Of a DNA stretch of 64,000 bases, positions 26,112 to 62,132 are shown one piece after another. The notes beneath the pieces are model-generated. The model made no database searches. It saw only the letters and a list, made by a program, of their open reading frames with translations, and was not told the DNA's origin. Within the stretch, counting starts at the first letter, position 1; every line of letters starts with the position of its first letter. The position numbers were made by a program, and so were the translations under genes. Source of the stretch: an uncultured Actinomycetota bacterium (GTDB lineage: Bacteria > Actinomycetota > UBA4738 > HRBIN12); contig CAVRUS010000011.1 in the NCBI GenBank assembly GCA_963724415.1, positions 256,561 through 320,560 on the forward strand. Reading direction: 5' to 3'.

Positions 26112-26686
26112 AGGTCGAAGAACACCCCTTGCGCCCACGGCCAGACCCAGTTGTAGCCGGGGCCGCGGAAGAAGGAGCCGATGATCGTCAGCACGGCGCC
26201 GAACATGAACAGCACCGTGAACATCGTGAGCGCGATCTTCCGGTCACCGGGACGCGTGCTCGGGTTCCGATCGACGAAGGGGACGGCCGCCAGGCCGATC
26301 AAGATGAACGTCGGGATCGAGATCCCGGCCACCATCGGATGGAAGTAGCGGAGCAGCTCCTGGAGTCCGAGGAAGTACCAGGGAGCCTTCGAGGGGTTCG
26401 GCGTGAGGTTCGCGTTCGCCAGCTCGCGGAGCGGCGCGTTCAGGAACGTCGAGAACACCACGAGGCCGACGGAGAGCACGAACATCGCGACGAACTCTTC
26501 GAGCAGCAGGTGGGGCCACACGTTGACGCGGTCACCCTGCTCGCGCTCGACCCGCTGGATCCCCTCCGGCGGCACGAGCGCGAGGAGCCGGTGCTTCTCC
26601 GGCGCGCCCTTCTTGGGGGTCGGGATGTTCCCCGTCGGCAGCGGGGCCGTGCGCGTCGGAGCGCTCACGGGCGCCGCCGCGACCAT
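26108..26686 (-). CDS. Cytochrome b6-f subunit IV-like protein (C-terminal half of a split cytochrome b)
   Basis: PetD/QcrC-type motifs (NVWPHLLLEEF, PWYFLGLQELLRYF); start at internal ATG 26686 by index arithmetic. Confidence 0.75.
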   Translation of the reverse strand: MVAAAPVSAPTRTAPLPTGNIPTPKKGAPEKHRLLALVPPEGIQRVEREQGDRVNVWPHLLLEEFVAMFVLSVGLVVFSTFLNAPLRELANANLTPNPSKAPWYFLGLQELLRYFHPMVAGISIPTFILIGLAAVPFVDRNPSTRPGDRKIALTMFTVLFMFGAVLTIIGSFFRGPGYNWVWPWAQGVFFDL

Positions 26687-26952
26687 CGCGGCCTGAGCGG
26701 TGCTGCCGCCGGTGCTGCTCCCACAGCCGCGGGCGTCTGTGCCGGGGCACCGCCGTTGCCGTCTGTGGCAGCCGCGGCCGGAGCGGGTGCGGCAGCTGCT
26801 GCCTCCTCCTCGGGATGCGCGGCCTTGTAGGCGCGGACCGCCGCCGACCGGGCACGCCCCTCGGCGACGCGCTTGTCGGTGCCGGCGTCCAGCTGCTCCT
26901 TCAGGACGCGGTCGAAGACCTCCTGGTCGAGCGGGGTGTCCTCTCTCGCCAT
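26665..26952 (-). CDS. Hypothetical 95-aa ORF between the cytochrome b6 and subunit IV genes (Ala/Pro-rich tail); possibly a frameshifted N-terminal extension of subunit IV
   Basis: In a different frame from subunit IV and overlapping its start by 22 nt; the N-terminal 50 aa look protein-like, the rest is low-complexity. Confidence 0.2.
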   Translation of the reverse strand: MAREDTPLDQEVFDRVLKEQLDAGTDKRVAEGRARSAAVRAYKAAHPEEEAAAAAPAPAAAATDGNGGAPAQTPAAVGAAPAAAPLRPRWSRRRP

Positions 26953-26961
26953 CGCCGTCTC

Positions 26962-27732
26962 CTAGAGGGGTCCCGAGATCCCGCCGTCCTTGCGGATCCG
27001 CCAGAAGTGGACCGCCAGGAACAGCACCAATACGAACGGCAGCGCCAGCACGTGGAGGACGTACCAGCGGAGCAGCGTCTCCGGTCCGACGACGACGCCG
27101 CCGAGCAGCACGATGTTGAACTGCTTCGCGATGAACGGTGAGTACCCGGCGAGCGAGGTCCCGACGGTGACCGCCCAGATCGCGAGCTGGTCCCACGGCA
27201 GCAGGTACCCGGTGAACGACAGGCCGAGCGTGAGGAACAGCAGGACCACGCCGACGACCCAGTTGAACTCCCGCGGGGGCTTGTACGCGCCGGTGTAGAA
27301 GACCCGCGCCATGTGCAGCGTCACGCTGAAGACCATCAGGTGCGCACCCCAGCGATGGAGGTTGCGCACGAAGTCCCCGAGGAACACCGTCGTGCGGATC
27401 CCCTGCATGTCCGTGTACGCCTGCGCGCCGCCGATGTCGGCCATCGGCCGGTAGAAGAACATCAGGAAGATGCCGGTGATCGTGAGGAGGATGAACAGGA
27501 AGAAGGAGAGGCCCCCGAGGCAGAACGTGTAGGTCAGTTTCAGCCCGTGCCGTTTCACCTTCACCGGGTGGAGGTGGTACAGGACGTTGTTCATCGTCGC
27601 GAGGGCGCGATCGCGCGACGTGTCCTTGTAGCCCTTCCGGAAGATCGAGCCCGGCCGGAAGATCGACTTCCAGACCTCTGTCTCCCGGAGACGGTCGCCG
27701 AGCTCGCTCGGCGACGGGGGCTTCAACTTCAA
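26962..27732 (-). CDS. Cytochrome b6-like protein (N-terminal half of a split cytochrome b)
   Basis: TTG start after GAGAGGGGGAA; heme-ligand helices ([10 protein letters not shown]...FFYRP...HRWGAHLMV...). Confidence 0.8.
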
Positions 27733-27760
27733 CGCGTTCCCCCTCTCGCAGCCGGCGCGA

Positions 27761-28156
27761 TCATTCCTCCGCCGCCTGGGACGTCGGGACCTCGGCCATC
27801 GTGCGCCTGCCGCCGGAACCCTCCGGCAGCCGCGCATAGTACAGGGTGTCCGTCGGGCACCGGTCCACGCACACGGAGCACCGCGTGCAGGCGTTGTCGT
27901 CGACCACGAAGATCGCCGTCGAGTTGTGCACCTCGGCCCCCGACGCCGGTGTCTCGGCGCCCTCGACGATGTCCGGAGCCAGCATGTAGATGCAGTTCCA
28001 CGGGCAGACGTCCTCGCAGGCGCGGCACAGGATGCAGTTGTCGGGGTCCAGCATCAGGTGCTTCGGGGACTTCACGCCCTCCGCGAGCCACGCGGGGTCG
28101 ACGGCCTCCAGCGTGTAGTCCTCGTGGATGTCGACCTCGGTCTTGGTGAACGGCAT
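27761..28156 (-). CDS. 2[4Fe-4S] ferredoxin-domain protein
   Basis: Two CxxCxxCxxxCP clusters ([12 protein letters not shown] and [12 protein letters not shown]). Confidence 0.75.
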
Positions 28157-31108: not shown

Positions 31109-32055
31109 GCGCTGAGCAGATCTCGAACACCGCGTTCGACGTCACCCTGTGGCTCTACCTGGGGGCGATGGTCCTGTCCTTCGCCTACCTCGCGGCCCGG
31201 CGCGAGGTGCTCTGGCGGCTCGCCAGGGTGGTCGCGATCGCCGGCGTGACGGCGAACCTCGTGTCGATCGTCGCGCGGGGCGTGGCGGCGCAGCGCGTGC
31301 CGTGGGGCAACATGTTCGAGTACTCGACGGTGCTCGCGTTCCTCGTGGTCCTCGGGACCCTCGTGTTCGTCGAGGGCATCGCGAAGATCAAGACCCTCAC
31401 CGGTTTCTCGCTGATGTTCGCGGTCTTCACCCTCGCGATCGCGGCGATCTTCTTCCCGGTGGAGCCGAGCCCGCTGCAGCCGGCGCTGAACTCGTACTGG
31501 ATCAAGATCCACGTCGTGGCCGCGATCACCGGGTCGTCGCTCTTCGCGATCGGCGGGATCGCGACGATCCTGTTCCTGATCAAGGACCGGTCGGAGCGGC
31601 GGGCGCTCGCGGGTCTCCGCGAGCGCCAGCCGGCGCCGATCATGGGCGGCGCGATCGAGGTCGATGCCCCCCACGACCTCCTCCCGGATCCCGAGGGATC
31701 CGGGAGTGCGACCCCCGAGGCCGGGCGCGGCGGCGTCCTGCCGTCCGCCGCCGCCCTGGACCGCGTGGCCTACCGGGTGATCGCGTTCGCGTTCCCGATC
31801 TGGACGTTCGCCGTGATCGCCGGCGCGATCTGGGCGCAGGACGCGTGGGGCCGCTACTGGGGATGGGACCCGAAGGAGACCTGGTCGTTCGTCACGTGGA
31901 CGATCTTCGCCGGCTATCTCCACGCTCGATCGACGGCGGGGTGGAAGGGTCGTCGCGCGGCGGTGATCGCCGTCGTGGGGTTCGTCTCGCTGCTGATCAC
32001 GTACTACGCGGTGAACCTATGGATCGTCGGACTGCATTCCTACAAGCTCGGATGA
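31105..32055 (+). CDS. resC: Cytochrome c biogenesis protein ResC/CcsA
   Basis: Tryptophan-rich WGRYWGWDPKETW motif; GTG start overlapping the resB stop. Confidence 0.85.
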   Translation: MSAEQISNTAFDVTLWLYLGAMVLSFAYLAARREVLWRLARVVAIAGVTANLVSIVARGVAAQRVPWGNMFEYSTVLAFLVVLGTLVFVEGIAKIKTLTGFSLMFAVFTLAIAAIFFPVEPSPLQPALNSYWIKIHVVAAITGSSLFAIGGIATILFLIKDRSERRALAGLRERQPAPIMGGAIEVDAPHDLLPDPEGSGSATPEAGRGGVLPSAAALDRVAYRVIAFAFPIWTFAVIAGAIWAQDAWGRYWGWDPKETWSFVTWTIFAGYLHARSTAGWKGRRAAVIAVVGFVSLLITYYAVNLWIVGLHSYKLG

Positions 32056-32144
32056 GACGTTCGGTCGCGCCGAACCCCGGTGATACAGTGCGCGCGGGCT
32101 CGCTGAGCCCGTCCTCAGGAGAGCTCCGGGAGACCGAAGGAACC

Positions 32145-33249
32145 GTGCGGAAGAGGGTGCTCTGGGCGACGGCCGCGATCGGCCTCCTCCTCCTGTTGAG
32201 CGCCTGCGCCCCCGACGCGACGCAGGACACGCTCCAGCCCAAGGGTCCCTATGCGCAGCTGCTGAAGGATCTGTTCGTCCCCGTCTTCTGGGTCGCCGTG
32301 GTCGTCTTCATCGTGGTCGAGGGCGGCATCGTGTGGATCACGATCCGCTTCCGCCATCGCAAGGGTCGCGAGCGCATGCCGGCGCAGATCCACGGGAACA
32401 CGCGCCTCGAGATCGCGTGGACGATCGCGCCCGCGCTGATCCTGGCCGTCGTGATGGTGCCGACGGTCGCGGTGATCTGGGATCTCGCGCGCAAGCCGCC
32501 CGAGGATGCCCTGAACGTCACCGTCGAAGGCTTCCAGTGGTGGTGGGGCTTCAAGTACACCGACGAGGACATGCGGACGGGCTACGGCGAGGGCGCGCCG
32601 ATCCGCACGGCCGACGTCCTGGTGATCCCCGAGGACCGTGTCGTCTACCTCTCGCTCGAAGCCGCGCGGGGGAGAGATCCAGGGGGACGATCCCGCCGCC
32701 TCGGACTACATGGTGATCCACTCCTTCTGGATCCCGGAGCTGGCGGGCAAGCAGGACGTGGTGCCCGGCAGGACGAACCACATCCTGATGCAAGCGGACG
32801 ACCCCGGCGTGTACACGGGCCAGTGCGCCGAGTTCTGCGGTCTCCAGCACGGTCGGATGCTCGTGCGGGTGGTCGCGCTCTCGGCCGAGGACTGGGACGC
32901 ATGGGTCGAGAACCAGAAGCGCACCGCGGTCATCCCGACCGATCCGCTCGCCCGGCAGGGGATGGACCTGTTCCTCGGACCGCTCTCGGGTGGTCGTGGG
33001 TCCTGCATCAACTGCCACGCCGTGGGCGGAACGGATGCCGTGAGCCAGGCCGGGCCCGAGCTGACCCACTTCGCCGACCCGACCCACGAGTGCTTCGCGG
33101 GGTGCAACTGGGAGGTGACGGATCGCGAGGCGCTGGAGGCCTGGCTCCGCGATCCGAACGCGGTGAAGCTGGGCGCGAAGATGCCGGACTACGACCTGAC
33201 CGAGCGGGAGATCGACGCCCTCGTGGCGTACCTCGAGAGCCTGACGTGA
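32145..33249 (+). CDS. ctaC: caa3-type cytochrome c oxidase subunit II with a C-terminal cytochrome c domain; +1 frameshift in a G5 run near 32668-32672
   Basis: GTG start gives a lipoprotein signal (MRKRVLWATAAIGLLLLLSAC). CuA site (HSFWIPEL, CAEFCGLQHGRM) and CINCH heme motif lie in the second frame (track ORF 32638..33249). Alternative ATG 32052 overlaps the resC stop. Confidence 0.75.
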
Positions 33250-35179: not shown

Positions 35180-35825
35180 ATGGCCGACGTCGCGATCACG
35201 CACGGCGAGCCCCACGGCGCCGATCACCCGGAGACCACCACCGGGCTGCCCCACACCAAGCTCGCGATGTGGATCTTCCTGGCCTCCGAGTGCATGTTGT
35301 TCGGCGCGCTGATCACCACGTACGTGCTGTACCGGGGAGCGGAGCAACGGCGCCTCCCCTTCCCGCCGAGATCTTCGACATCCCGTACACGTCGGTGTCC
35401 TCGTTCGTGCTGCTCACGAGCTCGCTCACGATGGTGCTGGCGCTGTCCGCCGCGCAGGACCGCGACACCGGCAGGATGCGTCTGTGGCTGCTCACCACGG
35501 CGTTGCTCGGTCTGACGTTCGTCGGAGGCCAGGTCTACGAGTTCACCGCCTTCTACGAAGAGGGACTCAAGCTCTCGACACGAACCTCTTCGGGACGACC
35601 TTCTACGTCCTGACCGGGTTCCACGGCGTCCACGTCACGGTCGGCATCCTGATGCTGCTCTCGCTCGTCGGCCTGTCCTCCGCGGAGCGCCTCCCGGAGG
35701 ACCCGTCCTTCCCGGTCGAGATGGTGGGGCTCTACTGGCACTTCGTCGACATCGTGTGGATCGTGATCTTCACCGTCGTGTACCTGATCCCGACGCCCAG
35801 CCCGGGAGGTCCCGGTGGCCCTTGA
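35180..35825 (+). CDS. ctaE: Cytochrome c oxidase subunit III (short form); two -1 frameshifts near 35355-35365 and 35565-35575
   Basis: Subunit III segments lie in three successive frames (track ORFs 35090.., 35269.., 35484..): WIFLASECMLFGALITTY / EIFDIPYTSVSSFVLLTSSLTM / NLFGTTFYVLTGFHGVHV. Confidence 0.7.
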
Positions 35826-38489: not shown

Positions 38490-39908
38490 TCAGGCGTGGA
38501 GCAGCGCGTCCGCGCCGACCGCTCCGAAGAGCCCCGCGAGGTAGAGGATCGAGAACGAGAAGAGGCGCCTCGTCCGTGCGTCGTCCGCGGTCCGCCACAC
38601 CTGCAGCGAGCGGTACACGAACGAGCCGCCGAGCAGCACCGCAGCGCCCGTGTACACGGGGCCCATGTGTCCGATCGGCACGAGCAGCAGCGTCGTCGCG
38701 AACAACACGAGCGAATAGAGGAGGATCTGCCGCCGTGTCTCGGCTTCGCCGCGGACCACGGGGAGCATCGGGACACCCGCCGCCGCGTAGTCGCCGGAGA
38801 AGCGCATCGCAAGGGCCCAGAAGTGCGGCGGCGTCCAGACGAACACGATCGCGAACAGCACGACGGCGGGCCACGCGAGCGTGCCGGTGACGGCGGCCCA
38901 TCCGACGAGTGCCGGCACCGCGCCGGCCGCGCCGCCGATCACGATGTTCTGCGAGGTCGTGCGCTTGAGCCACATCGTGTAGACGAAGACGTAGAACGCG
39001 ATCGCGGACAGGGCCAGCACGGCGGCCAGGACGTTGACGGTCACCGCGAGGAAGTAGAAGGCGATCGCGCCCAGAACGAAGCCGAACCGGAGGGCGTGTT
39101 CCGGCGCGATCGCGTGCGACGGCAGCGGCCGCTGGCGTGTCCGACGCATGATCGCGTCGATGTCCCGGTCGAGGTACATGTTGATCGAGTTGGCGGATCC
39201 GGCGGCGATCGCACCGCCCGTCAAGGTCGCGAGGATCAGCCACGGGGAGGGCAGCCCTCGCTCGGCGAGCAGCATCGCCGGGACGGTGGTGATCAGCAGC
39301 AGCAGGACGATCCGCGGCTTCGTGAGGCGGTAGTAGGCCGTGACGGTGTCGCGGAGCGACGGGCGGTCCTGGGCGATCTCGTCGACCTCTGCATCGGGGT
39401 CGGCACCTCCCTCTGTGCCGGGTGCCGTCCTCCCGAGCCTCGCCATCGTGGCGAGCGCGACCACCGTGGCCCAGATCAACACGGACAGCGCCACGTGTGC
39501 CACGACGGCCCAGGGCTGGAGCCGGGTCCACACGTTGGCCGCGCCCACGAGCACCTGCGCGACGAACAGGGCGAGGGCGGTCGTCGAGAGTCGCACCAGG
39601 ACCTCGCGCCGGCCGTCGCCGGTCCGGGCGCGGATCGCCGTCCAGAGGACGAGGAGCATCGCGGCGGCGGCGAGCGCGCGGTGCAGGAACATCGCCGTCG
39701 CGGCGCCGCCGAGCGTCGGCACGAGCCGCCCGTCCATCAACGGCCAGTCCGTGAACACCAGCTGGGCGTCGCTCGCGCGGACGTAGGTGCCGACGAGGAG
39801 CAGGGCTCCCACGACGGCCGCCACCAGGAGGGTGAGCCGCGCGAACGGGTCGCGGGCACCGCGGGGTTCATCCATGGCGCCCGCTTCCATGGCGCCCGCT
39901 TCGCGCAC
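38490..39908 (-). CDS. ctaB: Heme A synthase C-terminal half fused in frame to protoheme IX farnesyltransferase (CtaA-CtaB fusion, downstream part)
   Basis: N-terminal about 160 aa are CtaA helices 5-8 (FLHRALAAAAMLL...), then a UbiA-family CtaB (YYRLTKPRIV...NMYLDRDIDAIM). Confidence 0.75.
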   Translation of the reverse strand: MREAGAMEAGAMDEPRGARDPFARLTLLVAAVVGALLLVGTYVRASDAQLVFTDWPLMDGRLVPTLGGAATAMFLHRALAAAAMLLVLWTAIRARTGDGRREVLVRLSTTALALFVAQVLVGAANVWTRLQPWAVVAHVALSVLIWATVVALATMARLGRTAPGTEGGADPDAEVDEIAQDRPSLRDTVTAYYRLTKPRIVLLLLITTVPAMLLAERGLPSPWLILATLTGGAIAAGSANSINMYLDRDIDAIMRRTRQRPLPSHAIAPEHALRFGFVLGAIAFYFLAVTVNVLAAVLALSAIAFYVFVYTMWLKRTTSQNIVIGGAAGAVPALVGWAAVTGTLAWPAVVLFAIVFVWTPPHFWALAMRFSGDYAAAGVPMLPVVRGEAETRRQILLYSLVLFATTLLLVPIGHMGPVYTGAAVLLGGSFVYRSLQVWRTADDARTRRLFSFSILYLAGLFGAVGADALLHA

Positions 39909-40350
39909 CTGCGCCGGGTCTGACGGCGCTCGCCACGTAGGTCACGTCGGCGATCAGCAGGAGAGCCGTGACGAAGTGCGCCGTGACCCACCAGGGATCC
40001 AGCTCGGTGGCCACCACCACGGCCCCGATCCCCGCCTGGGCCATCACGAGCGGGAACGCCAGGACCGCCGGCCACCGGAGTCGTGGTTCCCCGGACGCCA
40101 CCCGGTACGCGACGACGCCGGTGAGCGCCGCCAGCACGGCGACCAGGAACGCCATCGTGCGGTGCGAGAACTCGATCAGGGAATGGATCGTCCCCGACGG
40201 GAACAGGTGCCCTGGCTCACAGGCCGGCCACGTCGAGCATCCGAGTCCGGACCCCGTCCCGCGGACGAGCCCGCCGATCGCGAACAGCACGATCGTGGCG
40301 ATCGCCGTGACGAGCGCCAGGGACCGGAATCGGGAGCGGGTGAAGAGCAT
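39868..40350 (-). CDS. ctaA: Heme A synthase N-terminal half (CtaA helices 1-4 with a Cys-pair loop), separated from the rest by a frameshift
   Basis: Start by index arithmetic (MLFTRSRFRSL...); GCSTWPAC loop cysteines and HSLIEFSHR; ends in a stop inside a 15-bp tandem duplication, while the continuation is in another frame. Confidence 0.65.
   Translation of the reverse strand: MLFTRSRFRSLALVTAIATIVLFAIGGLVRGTGSGLGCSTWPACEPGHLFPSGTIHSLIEFSHRTMAFLVAVLAALTGVVAYRVASGEPRLRWPAVLAFPLVMAQAGIGAVVVATELDPWWVTAHFVTALLLIADVTYVASAVRPGAGARSGRHGSGRHG
39872..39901. repeat. Perfect 15-bp tandem duplication (CCATGGCGCCCGCTT x2) at the ctaA frameshift junction
   Basis: Read directly from the sequence; encodes EAGAM-EAGAM in one frame and SGRHG-SGRHG in the other. 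Confidence 0.6.
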
Positions 40351-40409: not shown

Positions 40410-41279
40410 GTGTCCGGGGATCTCCGCGAGCGGGTCGATGCCGTCCTGACGGCGTTCCTCGACGAGCGGGTCCGCGACGCCGAGCGACTCGACGCGGCGG
40501 CCCGGCCTCCGGTGGAGGAGATCGCTCGGCTCGTCGCCGCGGGCGGGAAGCGGGTCCGACCCGCGTTCTGCTACTGGGGCTTCCGCGCGGCAGGCGGCGC
40601 GGACCCGGGCGGTCGCGACGAGCCGATCGTGCGCGCCGCCACCGCGCTCGAGTTCCTCCACACGATGGCGCTCGTCCACGACGACCTGATCGACGGAGCG
40701 AAGGAGCGGCGCGATGTTCCTTCCACCGTCGCATGGTTCGAGGGGCGGGCGGAGGAGCTCGGGGCGAGAGGGGAGCCGGGCGCGTTCGGCGAGGCGATGG
40801 CGGTGCTCGTCGGCGATCTCGCCGCCGTCCTCGCGGACCGCCTGTTCCTCGAGTCGGGGTTCCCGCCGGACACGTTGGCCGGCGCCCTCGCCGTGTACCA
40901 CCCGATGCGCGAGGCGATGGCGATCGGGCAGTACCTCGGGCTCTCTCGGCAGTACGCGGATCGAGCGGACGTCGAGGCCGTCGGGCGCACCGCCTCCCTC
41001 AAGGGTGGCGGGTACTCCGTGGAGGGGCCGCTCCGGATCGGCGCCGCGCTCGCCGGTGGGTCCGGCGCGGTGGAGGAGTGCCTGTCCCGGTACGGCCGGC
41101 CGCTCGGCGAGGCGTTCCAGCTCCGCGACGACCTGGAGGACGGCGACGCGGCCCCGGGTGTCACCGCCGAGACGGTCAACGGCCGCGTCGCTCTCGCGAC
41201 GGCGGCGCTCGATCCGGGCCTGCTGTCGCCCGAGGCGCTCCCCGCACTCCGCCGGCTCGCCGAGGAGGTGGCGATGTGA
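40410..41279 (+). CDS. Polyprenyl diphosphate synthase (trans-isoprenyl diphosphate synthase family)
   Basis: GTG start; first aspartate-rich motif VHDDLID and a second QLRDDLED; divergent from ctaAB. Confidence 0.8.
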   Translation: MSGDLRERVDAVLTAFLDERVRDAERLDAAARPPVEEIARLVAAGGKRVRPAFCYWGFRAAGGADPGGRDEPIVRAATALEFLHTMALVHDDLIDGAKERRDVPSTVAWFEGRAEELGARGEPGAFGEAMAVLVGDLAAVLADRLFLESGFPPDTLAGALAVYHPMREAMAIGQYLGLSRQYADRADVEAVGRTASLKGGGYSVEGPLRIGAALAGGSGAVEECLSRYGRPLGEAFQLRDDLEDGDAAPGVTAETVNGRVALATAALDPGLLSPEALPALRRLAEEVAM

Positions 41280-41701: not shown

Positions 41702-41730
41702 GCGTGTCATGACCCCGTGCGATAGGCTGC

Positions 41731-43028: not shown

Positions 43029-43531
43029 CCGTAGGATTGCCGTCCGTGGGTGAGAGCGGCTCCCTCGCCTCGCTGGTCGCGGCCGGACTGAGCGACTACC
43101 TCCCCATCCTCCTGATGGCCGTGCTGGCCGTGGTCTTCGCGGTGGCCTCGCTGGGGGTCTCGGCGCTGCTGCGGCCGCATCGCCCGAACCGGCCGAAGCT
43201 GTCCGCGTACGAGAGCGGCAACGATCCGGTCCGGCTGCCCGGCGGCGAGCGGTTCAGCGTGAAGTTCTACGTCGTCGCGATGCTGTTCATCATCTTCGAC
43301 ATCGAAACGATCTTCCTGTTCCCGTGGGCCGTGTCCTTCCGGCAGCTCGGGCTGTTCGGGTTGATCGAGATGGCGGTCTTCATCGCGCTCGTGTTCGTGG
43401 CCTACGTCTACATCTGGAAGAAGGGCGGCTTCGACTGGTCCGCCGAGCCTCCCGACCTCCGGGACGAGGAGGATCCGCGGCAGGTCGCCGCCGCGGAACT
43501 GCAGGAAGAGGGTGCCGTCGGTGCCCGTTGA
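43025..43531 (+). CDS. nuoA: NADH-quinone oxidoreductase subunit A
   Basis: In-frame GTG overlapping the upstream stop; NuoA core (YESGNDP...[15 protein letters not shown]); start could be slightly downstream. Confidence 0.8.
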
Positions 43532-44039
43532 GCGCGTCGAAGGACACGTCACCGGGCGGGGTCCCGAGGAGGTCGAGGAGGAGGTCCGCAAGGGCGTACT
43601 GCTGACCTCGCTCGACCGGGCGGTGAGCTGGGCGCGGAAGCAATCGATGTGGCCGGCGACGTTCGGGCTCGCCTGCTGCGCGATCGAGATGATGTCCGCG
43701 GGCGCCGGGCGGTACGACCTCTCCCGATGGGGGATGGAGCTGTTCCGGGCCTCGCCGCGCCAGGCGGATCTGATGATCGTGGCCGGGCGCGTCTCCCAGA
43801 AGATGGCGCCGGTCCTGCGCCGGGTCTACGACCAGATGCCCGAGCCCAAGTGGGTGATCTCGATGGGCGTGTGCGCATCCGCCGGCGGGATGTTCACGAA
43901 CTACGCGATCGTCCAAGGCGTGGACACGATCGTGCCGGTCGACATCTACGTGCCGGGCTGTCCGCCGAAGCCGGAGATGCTGATGTTCGGCATCCTGAAG
44001 CTCCAGGAGAAGGTGCGGACGACGGGGACGATCCGGTGA
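43512..44039 (+). CDS. nuoB: NADH-quinone oxidoreductase subunit B
   Basis: [10 protein letters not shown] and the CPPKPE N2-cluster cysteines. Confidence 0.9.
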
Positions 44040-44048
44040 AGGCGCCAG

Positions 44049-44549
44049 ATGCGGGCTGATGAGCTCGCGGCGCGCGTCGGCGAGCGATTCACCGACGTCC
44101 TGCTCGCACGTGACGAGGTCACCGTCGTCGTCGACCGAGACGACCTCGTCGATGCGCTCGTGCGACTCCGGGACCAACCCGACCTGTCGTTCGGGTTCCT
44201 CTCGAGCCTGACCGCGACCGATCACCTCGACCGGGAGCCCCGCTTCTGGGTGGTCTACGAGCTCCGGTCGGTGGAGCATGCTCACCGGATCCGCCTGAAG
44301 GTGGGGCTGCCCGCGGAGGATCCGCACATCCCCTCGGTCACGGCGCTCTTCCCGACGGCCGACTGGCACGAACGTGAGGCGTGGGACCTGTTCGGTGTCG
44401 TCTTCGACGGCCATCCCGACCTCGTTCGGATCCTGCTCCCCGACGATTGGGAGGGACATCCGCTCCGCAAGGACGAGGAGCTCGGGGGTGTCGAGACCCG
44501 GTACCACGGCGCGTTCATCCCACCCGTCGACGAACGGACGATGCCGTGA
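44049..44549 (+). CDS. nuoC: NADH-quinone oxidoreductase subunit C
   Basis: [19 protein letters not shown]...GHPLRKD motif. Confidence 0.9.
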
Positions 44550-45850
44550 TGGCGAGTGGGCACGAGATGTCGCATGCGCGCGACGGGCTCTCGCGCACGC
44601 CGGAGATCCGCGACGACGTCACCGGCGAGGTCCGCCAGGAGACGATGATCATCAACATGGGGCCGCAGCACCCCTCCACCCACGGGGTGCTCCGGTTGCT
44701 CCTCGAGCTCGACGGAGAGACGGTGATCCGGTGCCGGCCGATCGTCGGCTACCTCCACACCGGCATCGAGAAGAACACCGAGTACCGCACCTGGGTCCAG
44801 GGCGTGGCGTACGTGACCCGCGCCGACTATCTCTCCCCGTTCTTCAACGAGCTCGCGTACTGCCTGTCCGTCGAGCGCCTGCTCGGGATCGAGGCGCCGC
44901 CGCGGGCGCAGATCCTCCGGGTGCTCCTCTGCGAGCTGAATCGCATCGCCTCGCACCTCGTCTGGGTGGCCACCGGCGGGATGGAGCTGGGCGCCGTCTC
45001 CGTGATGCTCTATGGGTTCCGTGAGCGGGAGCTGATCCTCGACATCTTCGAGGCCGTCACCGGCCTTCGGATGAACCACGCCTACATCCGGCCCGGCGGC
45101 GTGATCATGGATCTGCCCGAGGACGGACCCCGCCGGATCGCGCGGTTCCTCGACGCGATGCCGGCGAGGATCGACGACTACGAACGGCTCCTGAACGACA
45201 ACCCGATCTGGCTCGAGCGGAACGTCGGCGTGGGCGTCCTGCAGGCGGACGAGGCGCTCGCGTGGGGCGTGACCGGGCCCCTCCTCCGGGCGGCCGGCGT
45301 CGCCGTCGACCTCCGCAAGGACGAGCCGTACAGCGGCTACGAGACCTACGACTTCGAGGTTCCGGTACGGACCGAGGCCGACTCCTACGCTCGGTACCTG
45401 GTCCGCATCGCGGAGATGCGGGAATCGCTCCGGATCGCCGAGCAGGCCCTCGCTCGCCTGGAGGAGCCGGGCCCGGTGATGGTCGAGGACCCGAAGGTGG
45501 GCTGGCCGGTGAAGCTCTCGGTCGGGCCCGACGGCATCGGCAACGACGAGGCGTATCTCCACCACATCATGGAGGAGTCGATGGAGGCACTGATCCATCA
45601 CTTCAAGATGGTGACCCAAGGGGTGCGTGTGCCCGCGGGGGAGGTCTACACGGCGGTCGAGTCGCCGCGGGGTGAGCTCGGCTTCTACGTCGTCTCCGCG
45701 GACGAGCACCGCCCGTACCGCGTCAAGATCCGCGACCCCTCGTTCGTGAACCTCCAGGCGGTCCCGACGATGGTGGAGGGTGGTCTGATCGCGGACGCGA
45801 TCGCGGTGATCGCCTCGCTCGACCCGGTGATGGGGGGCGTCGATCGCTGA
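44549..45850 (+). CDS. nuoD: NADH-quinone oxidoreductase subunit D
   Basis: Internal ATG by index arithmetic overlapping the nuoC stop; NuoD (49 kDa) motifs [13 protein letters not shown] and VESPRGELG. Confidence 0.9.
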
Positions 45851-46421
45851 TGACGGTCTTCGAGGGCACGCGGCTGGACGAGGCGAAGGAGATCATCGGC
45901 CGGTACCCGGAGGGACGCGAGCGCTCCGCGATCATGCCCCTGCTCTACCTCGCGCAGTCGATCGAGGGTCATGTCACGCGCGAGGGTCTGCGGGAGATCG
46001 CGGTGCTCCTCGGCCGGACGACGGCCGAGGTGGAGGCCGTCGCGACGTTCTACACGATGTTCCGACTCCGCCCGACCGGCACCCACGTGGTGAGCGTGTG
46101 CACGAACCTCGCCTGCATGCTCCGGGGCGGGCGCGAGGTGTACGAGGCGGCGCACGAGGCAGCCGGGATGCGCCACGGCCAGGAGCTGTCGGAGGACGGG
46201 CTGTTCACCCTGCACGAGGAGGAGTGCCTGGGCGTGTGCGACTTCGCGCCCGTCGCGCAGGTGAACTTCGCGAACCACGATCAGGTGACGCCCGAGCGGA
46301 TGGCGGAGCTGATCGCGGGGCTGCGCGACGGCTCCGTCCCGGAGCCGTCGCGCGGCCCCGCGATGGAGAGCTTCAAGGCCGCGTCGCGCGTGCTCGCCGG
46401 GTTGGAGGAGGTGCCGGCGTC

Positions 46422-46425
<4 letters not shown>
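45850..46425 (+). CDS. nuoE: NADH-quinone oxidoreductase subunit E
   Basis: [2Fe-2S] cysteines (VCTNLACM...CLGVCDFAP). Confidence 0.9.
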
Positions 46426-47717
<1,292 letters not shown>

Positions 47718-47781
47718 GCTGGCATCTCCGGGGGGCCGGGGGGGCCTACAAGCGAGGCCCCGAGCGCGTGGCGAGGCGGAC

Positions 47782-50226
47782 GTGATGCCGAGCGGCGGCC
47801 CCCCGAAGGAAGACGTGACGTTGTCGATCGACGGCAAAGAGGTCACGGTCCCGACGGGCACACTGATCATCCGCGCCGCGGAGCAGCTCGGCATCGAGAT
47901 CCCGCGCTTCTGCGACCATCCGTTCCTCGAGCCCGCCGGGGCGTGCCGCCAGTGCTACGTCCGGATCGAGGGCCAGCCGAAGCTCGCCACCTCGTGCACC
48001 GTGCCGGTCGCCGCGGGCATGTCGGTGATGACGCAGGCGAGCGACGAGGAGGTCGCCGACGCCCAGCGCGCGAACCTCGAGTTCCTCTTGCTGAACCATC
48101 CTCTCGACTGCCCGATCTGCGATCGCGGCGGCGAGTGCCCGCTGCAGGACCAGGCCCTCGCGTACGGGCCGGGGGACAGCCGGTTCCGGGAGGCGAAGCG
48201 CGTCTTCAAGAAGCCGATCCCGCTGTCACCGCTCGTGGCGCTCGACCGGGAGCGTTGCATCCTCTGCGCGCGCTGCACGCGGTTCTGCGACCAGATCTCG
48301 GGCGACCGCTTCCTGGAGCTCTACGCGCGGGGAGCGGGGGAGCGGGTCTCGATCGCGGCCGGGGAAGACTTCCGGTCGCCGTTCAGCGGCAACACCGTGC
48401 AGATCTGCCCGGTCGGGGCGCTGACCTCTGCGCCGTACCGGTTCGCCGCCCGGCCGTTCGATCTGACGTACGGCGACTCGGTCTGCCCGCACTGCTCGGC
48501 CGGCTGCAACATCCGGGTCGACCTCCGGCGCGGCGAGGTCGTCCGCCACCTCGCGCGCGATGAGTACGAGGTGAACGACGCGTGGGTCTGCGACAAGGGC
48601 CGCTACGCGTTCCGGTTCCCCGACTCGCCCGAGCGGGTCACGACGCCGCTGATCAGGGACCACGGCCTCGAGCCGGCCTCGTTCGGCGAGGTGCTCACGA
48701 CCATCGCGAGCTGGGTGGACGGCGCGCGCGTCGGCGTGCTGACCGGCGGCCGGCTGATGGACGAGGACTACTACGCGCTGTCGAAGCTCGCTCGAACGGT
48801 CTTCAAGACGAACGACCTCGACCATCGGCGGGACCACGGAGCCGGCCTCCTCGAGGGTGAGGTCGCTGCCGGCGGGATGGGCGTGACGTATCGCGACGTG
48901 GAACGAGCGAAGGTGATCCTCGTCGCGGGCCTGGACGCCGAGCAAGAGGTTCCCATCCTGCACCTCCGACTCCGGAAGGCGGCGGCCGCCGGCGCGCGGA
49001 TCGTGGTGCTGCACCCCCGCCGGACCCGCCTCTGGGACGTCGCCGAGCACATCGTGTGCCGTCCCGGCGACGAGACATTGCTCCTGATGAAAGAGGAGGG
49101 CCGTCCCCGGCCGGAGATCGCCGAGGTCGCGAGCGCGCTCCGCGAGGCGGGTGACGCGGGGCTCGTGATCGCGGGACCGCGGCTCGCCGATCAGCCCCAA
49201 GGGGTCGAGGTGGCGGCCTCGCTGGCGGCGGACACCGGGGCGCGATTCGCCTACGTCACCCGTCGCGCGAACGATCGCGGCGCGCTCGTGGCCGGGATCC
49301 ACCCGTCGCTCCTGCCGGGCGGACGTTGGGTCGGGAGCGCGGAGGATCGAACGGAAGTGGAGGACGTCTGGGGGTCGCTCGAGTCGTCCGAGGGCAGGGC
49401 CTGGCGAGGGATCCTCGAGGCCTGTGCCGACCGAGAGATCGACGTGCTGTTCCTGATCGGCGTCGACCCCCTCCGGGACTACCCGGATGCGGCGCTCGCG
49501 CGGCGTGCCCTGCAGAACGTGCCCCGGAAGGTGGTGCAATCGCTCGAGCTCGGCTCGCTCGAGTCGTTCGCGGATGTGTTCCTGCCCGCAGCGGCCTTCC
49601 TGGAGAAGGACGGGCACATCACCACCTGGGAAGGCCGCGGCCAGCGTCTCCACGCGGTTCGAGATCCGCTCGGGATGTCCCGTCCCGACTGGGAGATCTT
49701 CGCCAGTCTGGCGCTCGCCTGCGGAGGAGACCTCGGGTTCGAGACCGTGGACGAGCTCCACGAGGAGATGGGCAGACTCCTGGCGCCGCGGGAGTCGCGG
49801 TCGCCGTTGAGGGCACAACCCCTCACGATGCCCGCCCGCGTCGGTGACGGCGAGCTCCTCCTGTTCACCTACCCCCTGCTCGTCGATGAGGGCCGCCTCT
49901 CCGAGCGCGCCGACGAGCTGAAGGCGGCGCTCGCCGATCCGCCGTTCGCGGAGATCCATCCCGCCGACGCGGGGCGAGCGAACGTCGCCGACGGGGCCGA
50001 CGTGCGGCTCGCCACGGCCGCCGGCGAAGTCACGCTGCCGGTTCGCGTCACCGAGCACGTCGCGGAGGGCGCGGTCTTCGTCCCCTTCAACCAGGCAGGC
50101 TTCGCGGCCAACACGCTCCTCCAGGGCCACTTCTCGATCGCCGCGACGATCCAGCCGGTGGACGCGCCGACCGACACGGACGCGGTCGCCGAGGTGGCCG
50201 AGGCCGCCGCGGGAGGTACCGGGTAG
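47782..50226 (+). CDS. nuoG: NADH-quinone oxidoreductase subunit G
   Basis: 814 aa; N-terminal [2Fe-2S]/[4Fe-4S] cysteine motifs (CRQCYV; [13 protein letters not shown]; [11 protein letters not shown]). Confidence 0.9.
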
Positions 50227-51348
50227 ATGGACTGGCTCGACTGGCTGCTGCTCGCACTCCGTGTCGTGATCGTGTTCTTCGGGCTCCTGATCTCGGTGCT
50301 GCTCTACATCTGGTTCGAGCGCAAGGTGATCGCCGACTTCCAGACCCGCAAGGGGCCGATGCGCGCCGGGCCGCGCGGCATCCTCGTCACCCTCGCCGAC
50401 GGGATCAAGCTCTTCTTCAAGGAAGGCATCCTCCCGACGAACGCGGACAAGCCGATCTACCTGCTCGCCCCGGTCCTCGCGATGTTCCCGGCATTCCTCG
50501 CGTTCAGCACGATCCCGTTCGGCGACGACATCACGCTGTTCGGCCGGGAGGTCCCGCTGCAACTGGTCGACCTCGACATCGGCATCCTCTGGATCCTCGC
50601 GATGACCTCGATCGCCGTCTACGGCGTGGTCCTGGCGGGTTGGGCGAGCGGTTCGAACTACCCGCTCCTCGGCGCGGTCCGCTCCACCGCCCAGATGATC
50701 TCCTACGAGGTCGCGATGGGCCTGGCGCTCGTGGCCGTGCTGATGTACAGCGGCCACCTGTCGCTCTCCGAGATCGTCGACGCGCAGGATCGCGTGTGGA
50801 ACGTGGTCCCGATGTTCCCCGCGTTCGTGGTCTATCTGATCTGCGCGATCGCGGAGACCAACCGCCCGCCGTTCGATCTCGCCGAGGCCGAGACGGAGCT
50901 CGTGGCAGGGTTCCATACCGAGTACTCGGGGATCACGTTCGCGATGTTCTTCCTGGGCGAGTACGTCGCGACCGTGACGGTCGCCGCGATCGGCGTGACT
51001 CTGTTCCTCGGCGGGTGGCGAGGACCCGCGCCGGACTTCCTTCCCGGTCTGTGGCCGTTCCTCTGGTTCCTCCTCAAGGTCACCCTCGTGATCTACGTCT
51101 TCGTCCTCGTCCGGGGCACGCTCCCGCGCGTCCGCTACGACCGGCTGATGGCGTTCGGCTGGAAGCTGCTGATCCCGTTCGGGCTCGTCTGGGTCCTGAT
51201 CACCGGGGTGATCGTCGTGCTCCCCTCCGAGCTCGACCTCGACCGGGCGAGCGTGTTGACGTGGTCGGCCGTCGCGTTCGGAGTGGCGGTGCTCCTCTCG
51301 TTCATCCCGATCGGTCGGAAACCCACGAAGGAGGAGGTGGCCTCGTGA
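50227..51348 (+). CDS. nuoH: NADH-quinone oxidoreductase subunit H
   Basis: NuoH/ND1 motifs ([27 protein letters not shown]). Confidence 0.9.
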
Positions 51349-51845
51349 CGGACGAACCGCGGAAAGAGCGGACCTTCCTCGGCGATACGGGCGCGATCCT
51401 GAAGGGCATGGCGACGGTGTTCAAGCAGACGTTCCGCCACGACGACACCGAGGAGTACCCGAAGGTGATCGCCGAGATCCCCGAGCGCGCGCACACCGGC
51501 AGGCACCGGCTCAACCGTCACGAGAACGGCCTCGAGAAGTGCATCGGGTGCGAGCTCTGTGCGTTCGCGTGTCCGGCCGACGCGATCTGGGTCGAGGGGG
51601 AGGACAACGACCCCGAGCACCCCACCTCGCCGGGGGAGCGCTACGCGAAGGACTACCAGATCAACTACCTGCGCTGCATCATGTGTGGCCTCTGTGTGGA
51701 GGCGTGCCCGACGCGTGCGCTGACCCTCACCAACTACTTCGAGATGGCCTACACGTCCCGGGAGGACGCGATCCTCACGAAGGAGCAGCTCCTGGAGCCG
51801 CCGCCGGAGCTCGGGACCACGCCGGGGGCGAAGGAGGGCCTGTAG
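51345..51845 (+). CDS. nuoI: NADH-quinone oxidoreductase subunit I
   Basis: GTG by index arithmetic; two CxxCxxCxxxCP ferredoxin motifs. Confidence 0.9.
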
Positions 51846-51847
51846 GG

Positions 51848-52404
<557 letters not shown>

Positions 52405-52408
<4 letters not shown>

Positions 52409-52710
52409 GGACGCCGATCGCGTATTTCATCGTCCTGTCGGGGATCCTCTTCGCGCTCGGGACGCTCGGCGTGCTGCTCCGCAAGAACGCGCTGCTGATC
52501 TTCATGTCCATCGAGCTCCAGCTGAACGCGGTGAACCTGGCGCTGGTTGCGTTCTCGCGGATGCACCTCGCGCTCGACGGCCAGGTGCTGGCGTTCTTCT
52601 CGATGGTGGTGGCGGCCGCCGAGGTCGTGGTCGGTCTCGCGATCATCGTGGCGGTGTACCGGCGCCGGGGGACCGTCGACGTCGACGACGCGAGAGGGCT
52701 CGCAGGATGA
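52405..52710 (+). CDS. nuoK: NADH-quinone oxidoreductase subunit K
   Basis: 101 aa NuoK/ND4L ([17 protein letters not shown]...). Confidence 0.9.
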
Positions 52711-54639
52711 TCGCGCTGTCGCTCCTGCGGGCTCGCTCGATCGAGCTGGATCATCTGGCTGATCCCCGCGCTCCCGCTCGTCGCGGCAGCGGTCAACCTC
52801 TTCCTCGGGCGACGCCTCGGGCGATGGCGCCGGCTGGCTGGCGGCTTCGGCCGCGGTCGGCCTCTCGTTCCTTCGCCGTGTCGGCGCTGATCGTCGTCCG
52901 TTGCTCCTAGCGGAGCGCGGAGGACTCGCGCTCGTGCATCCAGCACCTGTTCGACTGGATCTCGGTCGGGAGCTTCAACGTCGGCGTCGATCTCCGGCTC
53001 GACGTGCTCTCCGCGACGATGATCCTCGTCGTCACCGGCATCGGTTTCCTGATCCACGTGTACGCGATCGGCTACATGGAGGGCGACCCGCGGTACGGGC
53101 GGTTCTTCGCGTACCTCAACCTGTTCGTGTTCTTCATGCTCCTGCTGGTCCTGGCGGACAACTACCTCCTCCTGTACGTGGGGTGGGAGGGCGTCGGCCT
53201 CTGCTCGTACCTCCTGATCGGCTTCTGGTTCGAGAAGACCGAGAACGCGATCGCGGCGAAGAAGGCGTTCGTCACGACCCGGATCGGCGACACGATGATG
53301 CTGGTCGGGCTCGCGCTGATCGTGAAGGAGTTCGGCTCGCTCGACTTCGGCGCCGTCCTCGGCGCGCCCGGGGAGACGATCGGCGAGGGGACGGCGACCG
53401 CGATCTCGTTGCTCCTGTTCGCCGGCGCGATCGGGAAGTCCGCGCAGGTCCCTCTGCACGTCTGGCTGCCGGACGCGATGGCCGGCCCCACGCCCGTCTC
53501 GGCGCTGATCCACGCCGCCACGATGGTGACCGCCGGCGTCTACCTCGTCGTGCAGGAGCGCGCCGCTCTTCGAGCTCTCAGGCATCGCCCTCACCGTCGT
53601 ACTCGATCGTGGGGCTCCTCACGATGCTCTTCGCCGCGCACCTGCGCGCTGGCGCAGGACGACATCAAGCGGGTCCTCGCGTACTCCACCATCAGCCAGC
53701 TCGGTTTCATGTTCATGGCCGCGGGCATGCGCTTCTACACCGGCGCGATCTTCATGCTCGTCGCCCACGCGTTCTACAAGGCGCTGATGTTCCTGGGCGC
53801 GGGCTCCGTGATGCACGGGACGCACGAGGAGACGGACCTCCAACGGATGGGCGGGCTGATCCGCAGGATGCCGGTCACGGGCTGGACGTTCCTCCTGGGG
53901 GCGTTCGCGCTGGCCGGGGTCTGGCCGCTCGCCGGGTTCTTCGCGAAGGATCAGATCCTCGAGGTCGCGAACCGCACCGGCCGGACGTGGGTCTACCTGC
54001 TGGGGACGCTGGGCGCACTCCTGTCCGCCCTGTACATCGGGCGTCTCTTGTTCCTGGCGTTCTTCGGACGGCCGAGGAGCGAGCAGGCCGAACATGCGCA
54101 CGAGTCGCCCGTCGTGATGACCGATCCCGCTCGTGGTCCTCGCCGCGGGCGACGATCATCGCCGGGCTCCTGCTGTCGACGAACGCCGAGGGGAGGCTCG
54201 CGACGTCGCTCGAGCCGGTGGTCGGGCCGCTGCCGGCGCACGAAGGCGGGCTTGTCGACGGCCGCCCTCCTGGTGATCGCGACCGCGATCGCGCTCGGCG
54301 CGCTCGCGGTCGCGTGGTGGGTGTACGCGTCCGGTCGGGTCGACTGGCTCGCGCTCCGGGAGCGGCTCCAGCCGCTGCCGCGCGCCGCGCGCAACGGCTG
54401 GTACGTCGATCAGCGCGTACTCCACGCTGTTCGTACAGCCCGGGCTCGCCGCGGCCCGGTTCTCGGCGAACGTCTTCGACACGAAGGTCGTCGACGGGCT
54501 CGTGAACGGGGTCGGCGCCGGGACGCGGCGGTTCGCCGCCGTTGCCCGCCGCATCCAGACAGGGTTCGTGCGCTCCTACGCGCTCGCGTTCCTCCTCGGC
54601 GCCGTCGGCGTCCTCGTCTGGCTGGGGACGCGGCTGTGA
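52707..54639 (+). pseudogene. nuoL: NADH-quinone oxidoreductase subunit L, disrupted by at least 10 frameshifts (pseudogene or assembly-error hotspot)
   Basis: NuoL-homologous peptide segments jump among all three frames: N-terminus 52707-53000 with about 5 shifts; 53555-53650 with 3 (APLFELSGIALTVVL / IVGLLTMLFAAHL / ALAQDDIKRVLAYS); 54130-54420 with 3 ending in the true C-terminus ...GAVGVLVWLGTRL* at 54639. Flanking nuoK and nuoM are intact. Confidence 0.7.
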
Positions 54640-57692: not shown

Positions 57693-57699
57693 GGGCGCG

Positions 57700-58707: not shown

Positions 58708-58746
58708 GGGAAGGTGCCCTGATGGATCCTGCTAGGATCCGCGCTC

Positions 58747-58764
58747 GGGAAGACTTTCACAAGC
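58747..58764. promoter_or_regulatory. Rex-like half-site (GGGAAGAC-TTTCACAAG) immediately upstream of nuoA2
   Basis: The right half matches the Rex consensus TTTCACAA; the left half is degenerate; abuts the predicted GTG start. Confidence 0.3.
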
Positions 58765-62131: not shown

Positions 62132-62132
62132 C

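What the first reader, a model, noticed from the sequence alone, without database searches (positions are those of the whole stretch)
38490..40350. ctaA-ctaB gene fusion broken at a perfect 15-bp tandem duplication
Heme A synthase helices 5-8 are fused in frame to heme O synthase (CtaB), a Thermus-like arrangement. Helices 1-4 lie in a different frame ending at 39868. Exactly at the junction, CCATGGCGCCCGCTT is duplicated in tandem (39872-39886 and 39887-39901). A 15-bp duplication is frame-neutral, so an additional 1-nt indel nearby must exist. The duplication suggests replication slippage at this site.
Basis: seen in the sequence. Interest (0 to 1): 0.55.

Follow-up and report, generated by a model that had tools for sequence, protein, structure and literature searches.

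The report
Assembly error splits ordinary ctaA-ctaB gene
An ordinary fused heme A synthase / heme O synthase gene looks broken because of one extra base next to a short natural repeat, and that base is most likely a long-read assembly error, not a biological event.

Summary
CCATGGCGCCCGCTT occurs twice in tandem (39872-39886, 39887-39901). On the minus strand, a 160-aa ORF (CtaA helices 1-4, 40350..39868) and a 461/472-aa ORF (CtaA helices 5-8 fused to CtaB, 39875/39908..38490) lie in different frames and meet there. The predicted extra nucleotide exists: G39903, two bases from the repeat.

The biological reading does not hold.
- The repeat did not arise in this genome. Three relatives at 96-98% identity carry the same two units, slightly diverged, in a hypervariable TM4-TM5 linker (12-29 aa in orthologues).
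- About 120 orthologues are single fused proteins of roughly 570-680 aa, mostly 600-620. All full-length copies in short-read assemblies are in one frame.
- The window has at least 10 further extra bases, in ctaC, ctaE and nuoL.
- Window-private substitutions in the broken genes sit mostly at third codon positions (28 of 35), so selection was still acting.
- The relatives with traceable origin are Nanopore-only Microflora Danica MAGs or look like long-read assemblies. They carry many similar, mostly insertion, errors at different sites.

Verdict: a known, Thermus-like ctaA-ctaB fusion whose break is an assembly artefact (about 0.85). A real, tolerated split is not excluded (about 0.07).

The parts
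38490..40350 (-). Whole ctaA-ctaB gene (heme A synthase fused to heme O synthase). It gives about 619 aa once the extra base is removed.
   Evidence: The conceptual fusion matches 610-628-aa orthologues at 94-98% identity, over 100% of its length for P0001 and P0002 and 91% for P0003. tblastn with the intact L003 protein covers residues 1-144 in frame -2 and 140-608 in frame -3.
39868..40350 (-). ORF A, 160 aa: CtaA helices 1-4. It ends in 17 out-of-frame residues (RSGRHGSGRHG...) and TGA at 39870..39868.
   Evidence: PF02628 profile positions 75-168. Aligns to 6A2J residues 11-142, including the GCSTWPAC Cys pair and the EFSHR motif.
38490..39908 (-). ORF B, 472 aa from GTG (called as 461 aa from the ATG at 39875, = P0118): CtaA helices 5-8, a linker, then CtaB.
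   Evidence: PF02628 positions 177-322 and PF01040 UbiA positions 1-246 of 250, E = 2e-71. P0118 is 100% identical.
39872..39886 (.). 15-bp repeat, copy nearest the 3' end of the gene (encodes EAGAM in the ORF B frame).
39887..39901 (.). 15-bp repeat, copy nearest the 5' end of the gene (encodes EAGAM).
   Evidence: The homologous two-unit repeat, with 1-2 mismatches, is present in L001, L002 and L005.
39903..39903 (.). The single extra base (G on +, C on the coding strand) that shifts the frame.
   Evidence: Private to the window in the 5-way alignment. L001 reads GGTGCG-GAAGCG where the window reads GGTGCGCGAAGCG. The loop DNA is 80 nt; the six relatives whose reading frame runs unbroken through the loop (L001, L003, L004, L006, L023, L032) all have lengths of 1 mod 3.
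32052..33246 (+). ctaC (COX2), in two frames because of one extra base at about 32663-32667.
   Evidence: tblastn gives frames 3 and 1. Private insertion in the alignment. Frameshift-aware alignment gives +1 at 32667.
35180..35819 (+). ctaE (COX3), in three frames: extra bases at 35339 and 35347, and 2 extra nt at about 35572-35575.
52720..54639 (+). nuoL, read through many frame changes. The apparent 1090-aa NuoL-NuoM ORF (52911-56183) is a by-product of them.
   Evidence: Pfam shows NuoL and NuoM features in one ORF. The NuoL C-terminus lies in another frame (8qby_L residues 628-698, E = 1.8e-7). There is a garbled internal stretch against 8e9g_L. Frameshift-aware alignment gives +1 at about 52946, 53553, 53605 and 53645.

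Best explanation
The locus is an ordinary bifunctional ctaA-ctaB gene in a respiratory gene neighbourhood (cytochrome c biogenesis, ctaC-D-E-F, ctaG, a cupredoxin, a thiol peroxidase and nuo) of an uncultured soil Actinomycetota MAG.

Its product would make heme O with the C-terminal UbiA/CtaB domain and oxidise it to heme A with the N-terminal 8-helix CtaA domain. This function follows from family membership and was not tested.

The cytoplasmic linker between CtaA helices 4 and 5 is hypervariable in this clade. In this sub-lineage it carries an old two-unit 15-bp repeat, (E/D)AGA(M/T) x 2.

The apparent break is a single extra base (G39903) two bases from the repeat. It is most likely a consensus insertion error of a Nanopore-only metagenome assembly, not a mutation in the organism.

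Shown: the anatomy, the position of the extra base, its absence from relatives, and the presence of many equivalent extra bases in other essential genes of the same window.

Inferred: that the window comes from the same kind of long-read assembly as its relatives, and that the base is therefore an error.
For: 1. About 120 orthologues, up to 98% identical, are single fused proteins. In every short-read locus where the full-length gene was recovered (k141/k127/SPAdes MAGs and the JGI contig L003), it is in one frame.
2. The extra base is private to the window.
3. The window has further frame-breaking extra bases in ctaC (1), ctaE (4 nt at 3 sites; the 2-nt excess at about 35572 is also in L002, L001 and L004) and nuoL (at least 4 by frameshift-aware alignment, more by three-frame reading). 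Twelve neighbouring genes give zero with the same method.
4. All of these events are insertions. That matches the insertion-biased 1-nt indels in related ENA assemblies, which hit nuo, cox, ctaG and other genes at different places: L004 about 20 insertions and 9 deletions, L002 about 12 private indels in 21 kb, and L032 has ctaA-ctaB in 5 frame pieces.
5. Window-private substitutions in the broken genes are mostly at third codon positions (ctaAB 2/3/17, ctaE 1/1/11). This is the same pattern as in intact neighbours and indicates purifying selection up to the present.
6. Several relatives returned by the genome search are Microflora Danica long-read MAGs (isolate names MFDxxxxx.bin). Those assemblies are Nanopore-only, built with Flye and polished with one round of Medaka (PMC12313526).
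7. The loop is out of frame in three of the four repeat-bearing assemblies, each by a different indel (window +1, L002 -1, L005 -1). L002 and L005 also have further breaks inside the same gene.
Against: - The window's own record and reads could not be retrieved, so its sequencing technology is inferred, not shown.
- The window's errors are patchy. Genes checked over 0-16.6, 20-22.7 and 24.6-32 kb, the rest of the nuo operon at 43-58 kb, and one gene of the second nuo cluster at 60-61 kb all appear full-length. Two of the four hit genes are oxidase subunits and a third supplies the oxidase's heme A, which a real loss of that oxidase would also produce.
- The ctaA-ctaB site is not a homopolymer.
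- The break lies in a linker where a split might be tolerated. ORF B has an ATG overlapping ORF A's stop (ATGGATGA), so a real split could still be expressed.
Confidence: 0.85

Rival explanations
1. The extra base is a real, recent mutation and the gene works as two polypeptides. One is a 4-helix CtaA N-half. The other is a CtaA C-half fused to CtaB, translated by termination-reinitiation at the overlapping ATGGATGA. The two halves reassemble in the membrane.
For: The break lies in the hypervariable TM4-TM5 linker (12-29 aa), between the two pseudo-symmetric halves. The ATG at 39875 lies 5 nt before the TGA at 39870. Both halves show purifying selection. A 4-TM stand-alone heme A synthase exists in nature (class A / type 1.4, PMC8239418). 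The loop is out of frame in three related assemblies.
Against: No short-read orthologue is split. The three out-of-frame loops differ in position and sign, and they occur in assemblies that also carry frameshifts inside transmembrane helices of the same and other essential genes. The window itself has the same kind of extra base inside ctaC, ctaE and nuoL, where a split cannot be tolerated.
Confidence: 0.07
2. The frameshift is a real inactivating mutation, part of the decay of the caa3-type oxidase pathway (ctaC, ctaE and ctaA-ctaB all broken) in this strain.
For: Two of the four broken genes encode caa3 oxidase subunits and a third makes its heme A. Genes checked over 0-16.6, 20-22.7 and 24.6-32 kb look intact.
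Against: Private substitutions remain at third codon positions in 28 of 35 cases in ctaAB plus ctaE. There are no in-frame stops or deletions, and ctaD, ctaF and ctaG are intact. nuoL of an otherwise intact nuo operon carries even more extra bases. Every event is a +1-type insertion, unlike the mixed, deletion-biased spectrum expected of real decay (the expected spectrum is established knowledge, not tested here).
Confidence: 0.05
3. The site is a programmed +1 ribosomal frameshift, or a phase-variable switch driven by repeat copy number.
For: A repeat sits next to the frame change. A CGA codon, assumed from general knowledge to be rare at this GC content (codon usage was not tabulated), lies at the shift site (GCG CGA).
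Against: The 15-bp unit is a multiple of 3 and cannot toggle the frame. Copy number is 2 in all four repeat-bearing genomes. The extra base is absent from L001, which is otherwise identical there, and from every other relative aligned at this site, so no frameshift site is conserved. There is no slippery P-site re-pairing: GCG shifted by +1 reads CGC.
Confidence: 0.01

Closest known systems
Fused CtaA-CtaB (heme A synthase class C / type 1.0 fused to heme O synthase), as listed for Deinococcus-Thermus, Chloroflexi and others (PMC8239418, Table 1)
   Same: Same domain order, COX15/CtaA then UbiA/CtaB in one reading frame. The Cys pair is present only in the first outer loop (GCSTWPAC) and absent from the TM5-6 loop. 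Orthologues are about 600-620 aa.
   Different: Found in an uncultured Actinomycetota lineage. The TM4-TM5 linker is unusually variable and carries a two-unit pentapeptide repeat. In this assembly the frame is interrupted by one extra base.
Bacillus subtilis CtaA (PDB 6A2J / 6IED)
   Same: The N-terminal ORF aligns to residues 11-142 (helices 1-4), including the Cys pair and the E..H motif, and also to the C-terminal half. This reflects the internal pseudo-symmetry.
   Different: Only distant sequence similarity (E = 9e-12). B. subtilis CtaA is a class B, stand-alone 8-helix protein with a second Cys pair.
Compact 4-TM heme A synthase of archaea (class A / type 1.4)
   Same: ORF A alone would be a 4-helix half-size CtaA with one Cys pair.
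   Different: Here the half-size ORF is not conserved. All full-length orthologues in accurate assemblies are 8-helix fusions. The C-half has no independent conserved start.
Indel errors in Nanopore-only metagenome assemblies (Microflora Danica long-read MAG catalogue, PMC12313526)
   Same: Single-base, mostly insertion, frame-breaking differences. They are private to each assembly and hit essential genes at different places in genomes 93-98% identical to the window and in a more distant (85%) MFD MAG. The catalogue's assemblies were built with Flye and polished with one round of Medaka.
   Different: The window's own provenance was not retrievable. Its errors are fewer and more clustered than in the related contigs.

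Membership tests
COX15/CtaA heme A synthase (8-helix, class C / type 1.0) | Match to the full COX15-CtaA profile across two four-helix halves | tested here: met
   ORF A covers profile positions 75-168 and ORF B covers 177-322 of PF02628. When joined, the sequence aligns over its full length to intact orthologues.
COX15/CtaA heme A synthase (8-helix, class C / type 1.0) | Cys pair in outer loop 1 and none in outer loop 3; conserved E/H motif in helix 2 | tested here: met
   GCSTWPAC and EFSHR align to B. subtilis GCGRQWPLC and EWSHR. The TM5-6 loop (VFTDWPLMDGRLVP) has no Cys, read directly from the sequence. Classification criteria are from PMC8239418.
COX15/CtaA heme A synthase (8-helix, class C / type 1.0) | Heme O to heme A oxidation activity | not testable with these tools
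   Inferred from family membership only.
UbiA/CtaB heme O synthase | Full-length UbiA prenyltransferase domain with Asp-rich motifs | tested here: met
   PF01040 positions 1-246 of 250, E = 2e-71. NMYLDRDID is visible in the sequence.
Stand-alone 4-TM (class A / type 1.4) heme A synthase | The half-size gene is conserved as a separate gene in orthologues | tested here: not met
   All 120 listed hits carry both PF02628 and PF01040, and nearly all are 600-620 aa. Every short-read locus with the full-length gene is in a single frame.
Programmed ribosomal frameshift site | The frame change and slippery motif are conserved in relatives | tested here: not met
   The extra base is private to the window. 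L001 is in frame with the same flanks.
Phase-variable simple-sequence contingency locus | Repeat unit not divisible by 3, and copy number variable among strains | tested here: not met
   The unit is 15 bp. There are two copies in the window, L001, L002 and L005.
Pseudogene under relaxed selection | Lineage-specific substitutions spread evenly over codon positions | tested here: not met
   Window-private substitutions by codon position 1/2/3: ctaAB 2/3/17 and ctaE 1/1/11.
Long-read assembly indel artefact | Multiple private single-base indels in conserved essential genes of the same assembly, absent from accurate assemblies of relatives | tested here: met
   Extra bases in ctaC, ctaE, ctaAB and nuoL, against zero frame breaks in JGI contig L003.
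Long-read assembly indel artefact | Read-level evidence that the base is not supported | not testable with these tools
   Reads are not available, and the window's own record was not retrievable.

The most novel reading that the evidence does not exclude
The extra base is real, and the TM4-TM5 linker of this clade's CtaA-CtaB is a genuine indel hot spot where the enzyme can be split. The result would be a working two-piece heme A synthase: a 4-helix N-half plus a C-half fused to CtaB, translationally coupled through ATGGATGA. That would be a natural reversal of the ancestral 4-TM duplication-fusion.
Probability: 0.07. Interest if true: 0.4.

Novelty: not a real feature. Interest (0 to 1): 0.07.

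Why it matters
There is little biological consequence. The gene is a known kind of ctaA-ctaB fusion, and the break is best read as an assembly error.

The practical value is as a caution. In this window, and in the related assemblies that appear to be long-read, split genes, odd fusions such as the 1090-aa 'NuoL-NuoM' ORF, and apparent pseudogenes should not be interpreted without read support. Short GC-rich repeats in linkers appear to attract such errors.

If the base were real, it would show that heme A synthase tolerates separation of its two four-helix halves. That bears on how the 8-helix enzyme evolved from a 4-helix ancestor.

Tried and rejected
- Retrieving the window's own contig by exact protein look-up (P0118 and the 160-aa ORF) found nothing on record. 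The sequencing technology therefore had to be inferred from relatives.
- Two scans of JGI metagenome contigs, for the perfect duplication with or without the extra base, found no exact match. No accurate copy of the same allele was obtained.
- GC3 frame plots alone could not separate gene boundaries from frameshifts. I replaced them with Pfam coverage checks, tblastn against an intact reference contig and a frameshift-aware alignment.
- tblastn with the in-window NuoL paralogue bridged the short shifted patches and was uninformative.
- I looked for a common sequence motif, such as a methylation site, around the inserted bases in the window and the related contigs. No clear motif emerged.
- I suspected a frameshift in cytochrome b (26108-28053). 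It was rejected: the two ORFs match cytochrome b6 (to its natural C-terminus) and subunit IV, which is a natural split.
- Programmed frameshifting and phase variation were considered and rejected, because the site is not conserved and the repeat unit is divisible by 3.

Full report
**What is in the sequence.**
On the + strand, CCATGGCGCCCGCTT occurs twice head to tail (39872-39886 and 39887-39901), and the 15-nt periodicity spans 39871-39902. It is the only perfect tandem duplication with a unit of 15-30 nt in the 64-kb window. None of 300 Markov-simulated windows contained one, and the analytic expectation is about 5e-4.

The genes lie on the minus strand.
- ORF A (40350..39868, 160 aa) matches COX15-CtaA profile positions 75-168.
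- ORF B (39908..38490, 472 aa from GTG; gene callers start it at the ATG at 39875, giving 461 aa = P0118) matches COX15-CtaA positions 177-322, followed by a full UbiA/CtaB domain (E = 2e-71).
- ORF A aligns to helices 1-4 of B. subtilis CtaA (6A2J residues 11-142), including the Cys pair and the E..H motif.

**Where the frame changes.**
The closest in-frame relative (P0003 / L001, 98% aa identity) reads VRPGAGA-EAGAM-DAGAT-EHRGTRDPF across the junction. The window reads VRPGAGA in ORF A's frame and EAGAM-EAGAM-DEPRGARDPF in ORF B's frame. At the DNA level L001 has GGTGCG-GAAGCG where the window has GGTGCGCGAAGCG. This is one extra C on the coding strand, G39903 on the + strand, directly 5' of the first repeat unit. 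The loop DNA between conserved flanks is 80 nt in the window. The six relatives whose frame runs unbroken through the loop all have lengths of 1 mod 3.

**The repeat is not new to this genome.**
Three relatives carry the same two units in slightly diverged form:

| Locus | Unit 1 | Unit 2 |
|---|---|---|
| L001 | GAAGCGGGCGCCATG | GATGCGGGCGCCACG |
| L002 | GATGCGGGCGCCATG | GAAGCGGGCGCCATG |
| L005 | GATGCGAGCGCCATG | GAAGCGGGCGCCACG |

More distant relatives (L003, L004, L006) lack the repeat. Among orthologues that are otherwise more than 80% identical, the helix 4-5 linker ranges from 12 to 29 aa with almost no sequence conservation. The duplication is thus an older feature of a hypervariable linker. 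It is frame-neutral and is not the cause of the break.

**Orthologues.**
The conceptual fusion finds thousands of homologues. All 120 listed hits carry both domains, and nearly all are 600-620 aa. One exception is the window's own 461-aa call, P0118. In every short-read locus where the full-length gene was recovered (MEGAHIT/SPAdes MAGs and the JGI contig L003), the gene is in one frame. The arrangement corresponds to class C / type 1.0 CtaA 'fused with ctaB' listed for Deinococcus-Thermus, Chloroflexi and others. The 4-TM form is class A / type 1.4, not type 0 (PMC8239418).

**Is the break real?**
Several lines of evidence say no.

1. *Relatives break in different places.* Other contigs 93-98% identical to the window also have the gene split, each at a different site. 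P0127/P0124, P0128 and P0129/P0125 break at different points of the loop. L005 has two breaks, L002 has two compensating ones, and the more distant L032 (85% identical) has the gene in five pieces. P0003 and P0123 have a shifted C-terminal tail.

2. *Those contigs carry single-base indels throughout essential genes.* The affected genes include nuoC, D, E and G, ccsB (ResB), ctaG, the cupredoxin gene, the thiol peroxidase gene and cox genes. The ENA contigs have Flye-style names ('contig_NNNNN', ERZ2503xxxx), which suggests long-read assembly, and the genome search returned relatives named MFDxxxxx.bin. These are Microflora Danica long-read MAGs, which are Nanopore-only, assembled with Flye and polished with one round of Medaka (PMC12313526). 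The JGI contig L003 has no frame break in 18 genes.

3. *The window itself has more such bases.* Using L003 proteins as reference:
   - ctaC is in two frames, with an extra base at about 32663.
   - ctaE is in three frames, with extra bases at 35339 and 35347 and 2 extra nt at about 35572.
   - Twelve neighbouring genes are clean.
   - In nuoL, a frameshift-aware alignment to M. smegmatis NuoL places +1 events at about 52946, 53553, 53605 and 53645.
   - The NuoL C-terminus lies in another frame (54277-54639; 8qby_L residues 628-698, E = 1.8e-7).
   - Three-frame reading shows further shifts at 52.74-52.92 and 54.10-54.42 kb.
   - Every event is an insertion. The related contigs show the same bias, for example L004 with about 20 insertions against 9 deletions.

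4. *The broken genes are still under selection.* Window-private substitutions in ctaAB (2/3/17 by codon position) and ctaE (1/1/11) are overwhelmingly at third positions, as in intact neighbours. Accumulating five frame-breaking insertions in three genes without any relaxation of selection is not credible as real decay.

**Caveats.**
- The window's own record and reads could not be retrieved, so its provenance is inferred.
- The errors are patchy. Genes checked over 0-16.6, 20-22.7 and 24.6-32 kb, the rest of the nuo operon at 43-58 kb, and one gene of the second nuo cluster at 60-61 kb appear full-length.
- The helix 4-5 loop is out of frame in three of four repeat-bearing assemblies (window +1, L002 -1, L005 -1). 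That is far more often than their average indel density predicts, so the GC-rich repeat region is a hot spot, most simply for consensus errors.
- The break lies between the two pseudo-symmetric halves, and ORF B's ATG overlaps ORF A's stop (ATGGATGA). A real, tolerated split with translational coupling therefore cannot be excluded (about 0.07).
- Programmed frameshifting and phase variation are rejected. The extra base is not conserved, the repeat unit is divisible by 3, and copy number is constant.

**Verdict.**
The locus is a known type of ctaA-ctaB fusion. Its interruption is most likely an assembly insertion error (confidence about 0.85). Interest is low. The main lesson is that frame anomalies in this window need read-level confirmation.

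Noticed in passing
window 52720-56183 (+): nuoL passes through many frames, with extra single bases at about 52946, 53553, 53605 and 53645 and more at 52.74-52.92 and 54.10-54.42 kb. Because three insertions restore the frame, a misleading 1090-aa 'NuoL-NuoM' ORF (52911-56183) appears.
   Followed up: yes
window 32052-33246 and 35180-35819 (+): ctaC (COX2) is split into two frames and ctaE (COX3) into three by extra bases. The 2-nt excess at about 35572 (TCGACACGAAC) has the same sequence in L002. In the 5-way alignment only L003 lacks it.
   Followed up: yes
window 39868-39950 and the same loop in L002, L005: The helix 4-5 linker DNA is out of frame in three of four repeat-bearing related assemblies, each by a different indel. 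This is more than their average indel density predicts. The reason for the hot spot (polishing ambiguity at the GC-rich repeat, or real hypermutability) is unresolved.
   Followed up: partly
window 26108-28053 (-): Cytochrome b is encoded as two ORFs, matching cytochrome b6 (to its natural C-terminus) and b6f subunit IV. This is a natural b6f-like split in an Actinomycetota MAG, flanked by a Rieske protein, a c-type cytochrome and a ferredoxin. About 300 nt between the two ORFs is unaccounted for.
   Followed up: partly
window 43046-57703 and 58735-64000 (+): There are two nuo (complex I) gene sets in tandem. Their NuoA, NuoB and NuoC proteins are only 37-55% identical. A polyprenyl synthase gene (57652-58707) lies between them, and a second polyprenyl synthase gene is at 40410-41279.
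   Followed up: no
L003 4649-5209 vs window about 41706-41717: The JGI relative carries an extra 186-aa SMI1/KNR4 (SUKH) gene between the FAD-binding protein gene and the PNPOx gene. It is absent from the window and from L001, L002 and L004 (a 563-nt indel).
   Followed up: no
L001 gene 3001-4887 (P0003) and P0123: Two separately listed ENA proteins (P0123's contig was not fetched) share the same shifted C-terminal tail of CtaB (...AARRLVRLPLAAGVADRGRR...). This suggests a recurrent, context-specific error or a shared allele.
   Followed up: no
window 47717-47800: An 83-nt segment containing C- and G-runs, between nuoF and nuoG, is present in the window but absent from L002.
   Followed up: no
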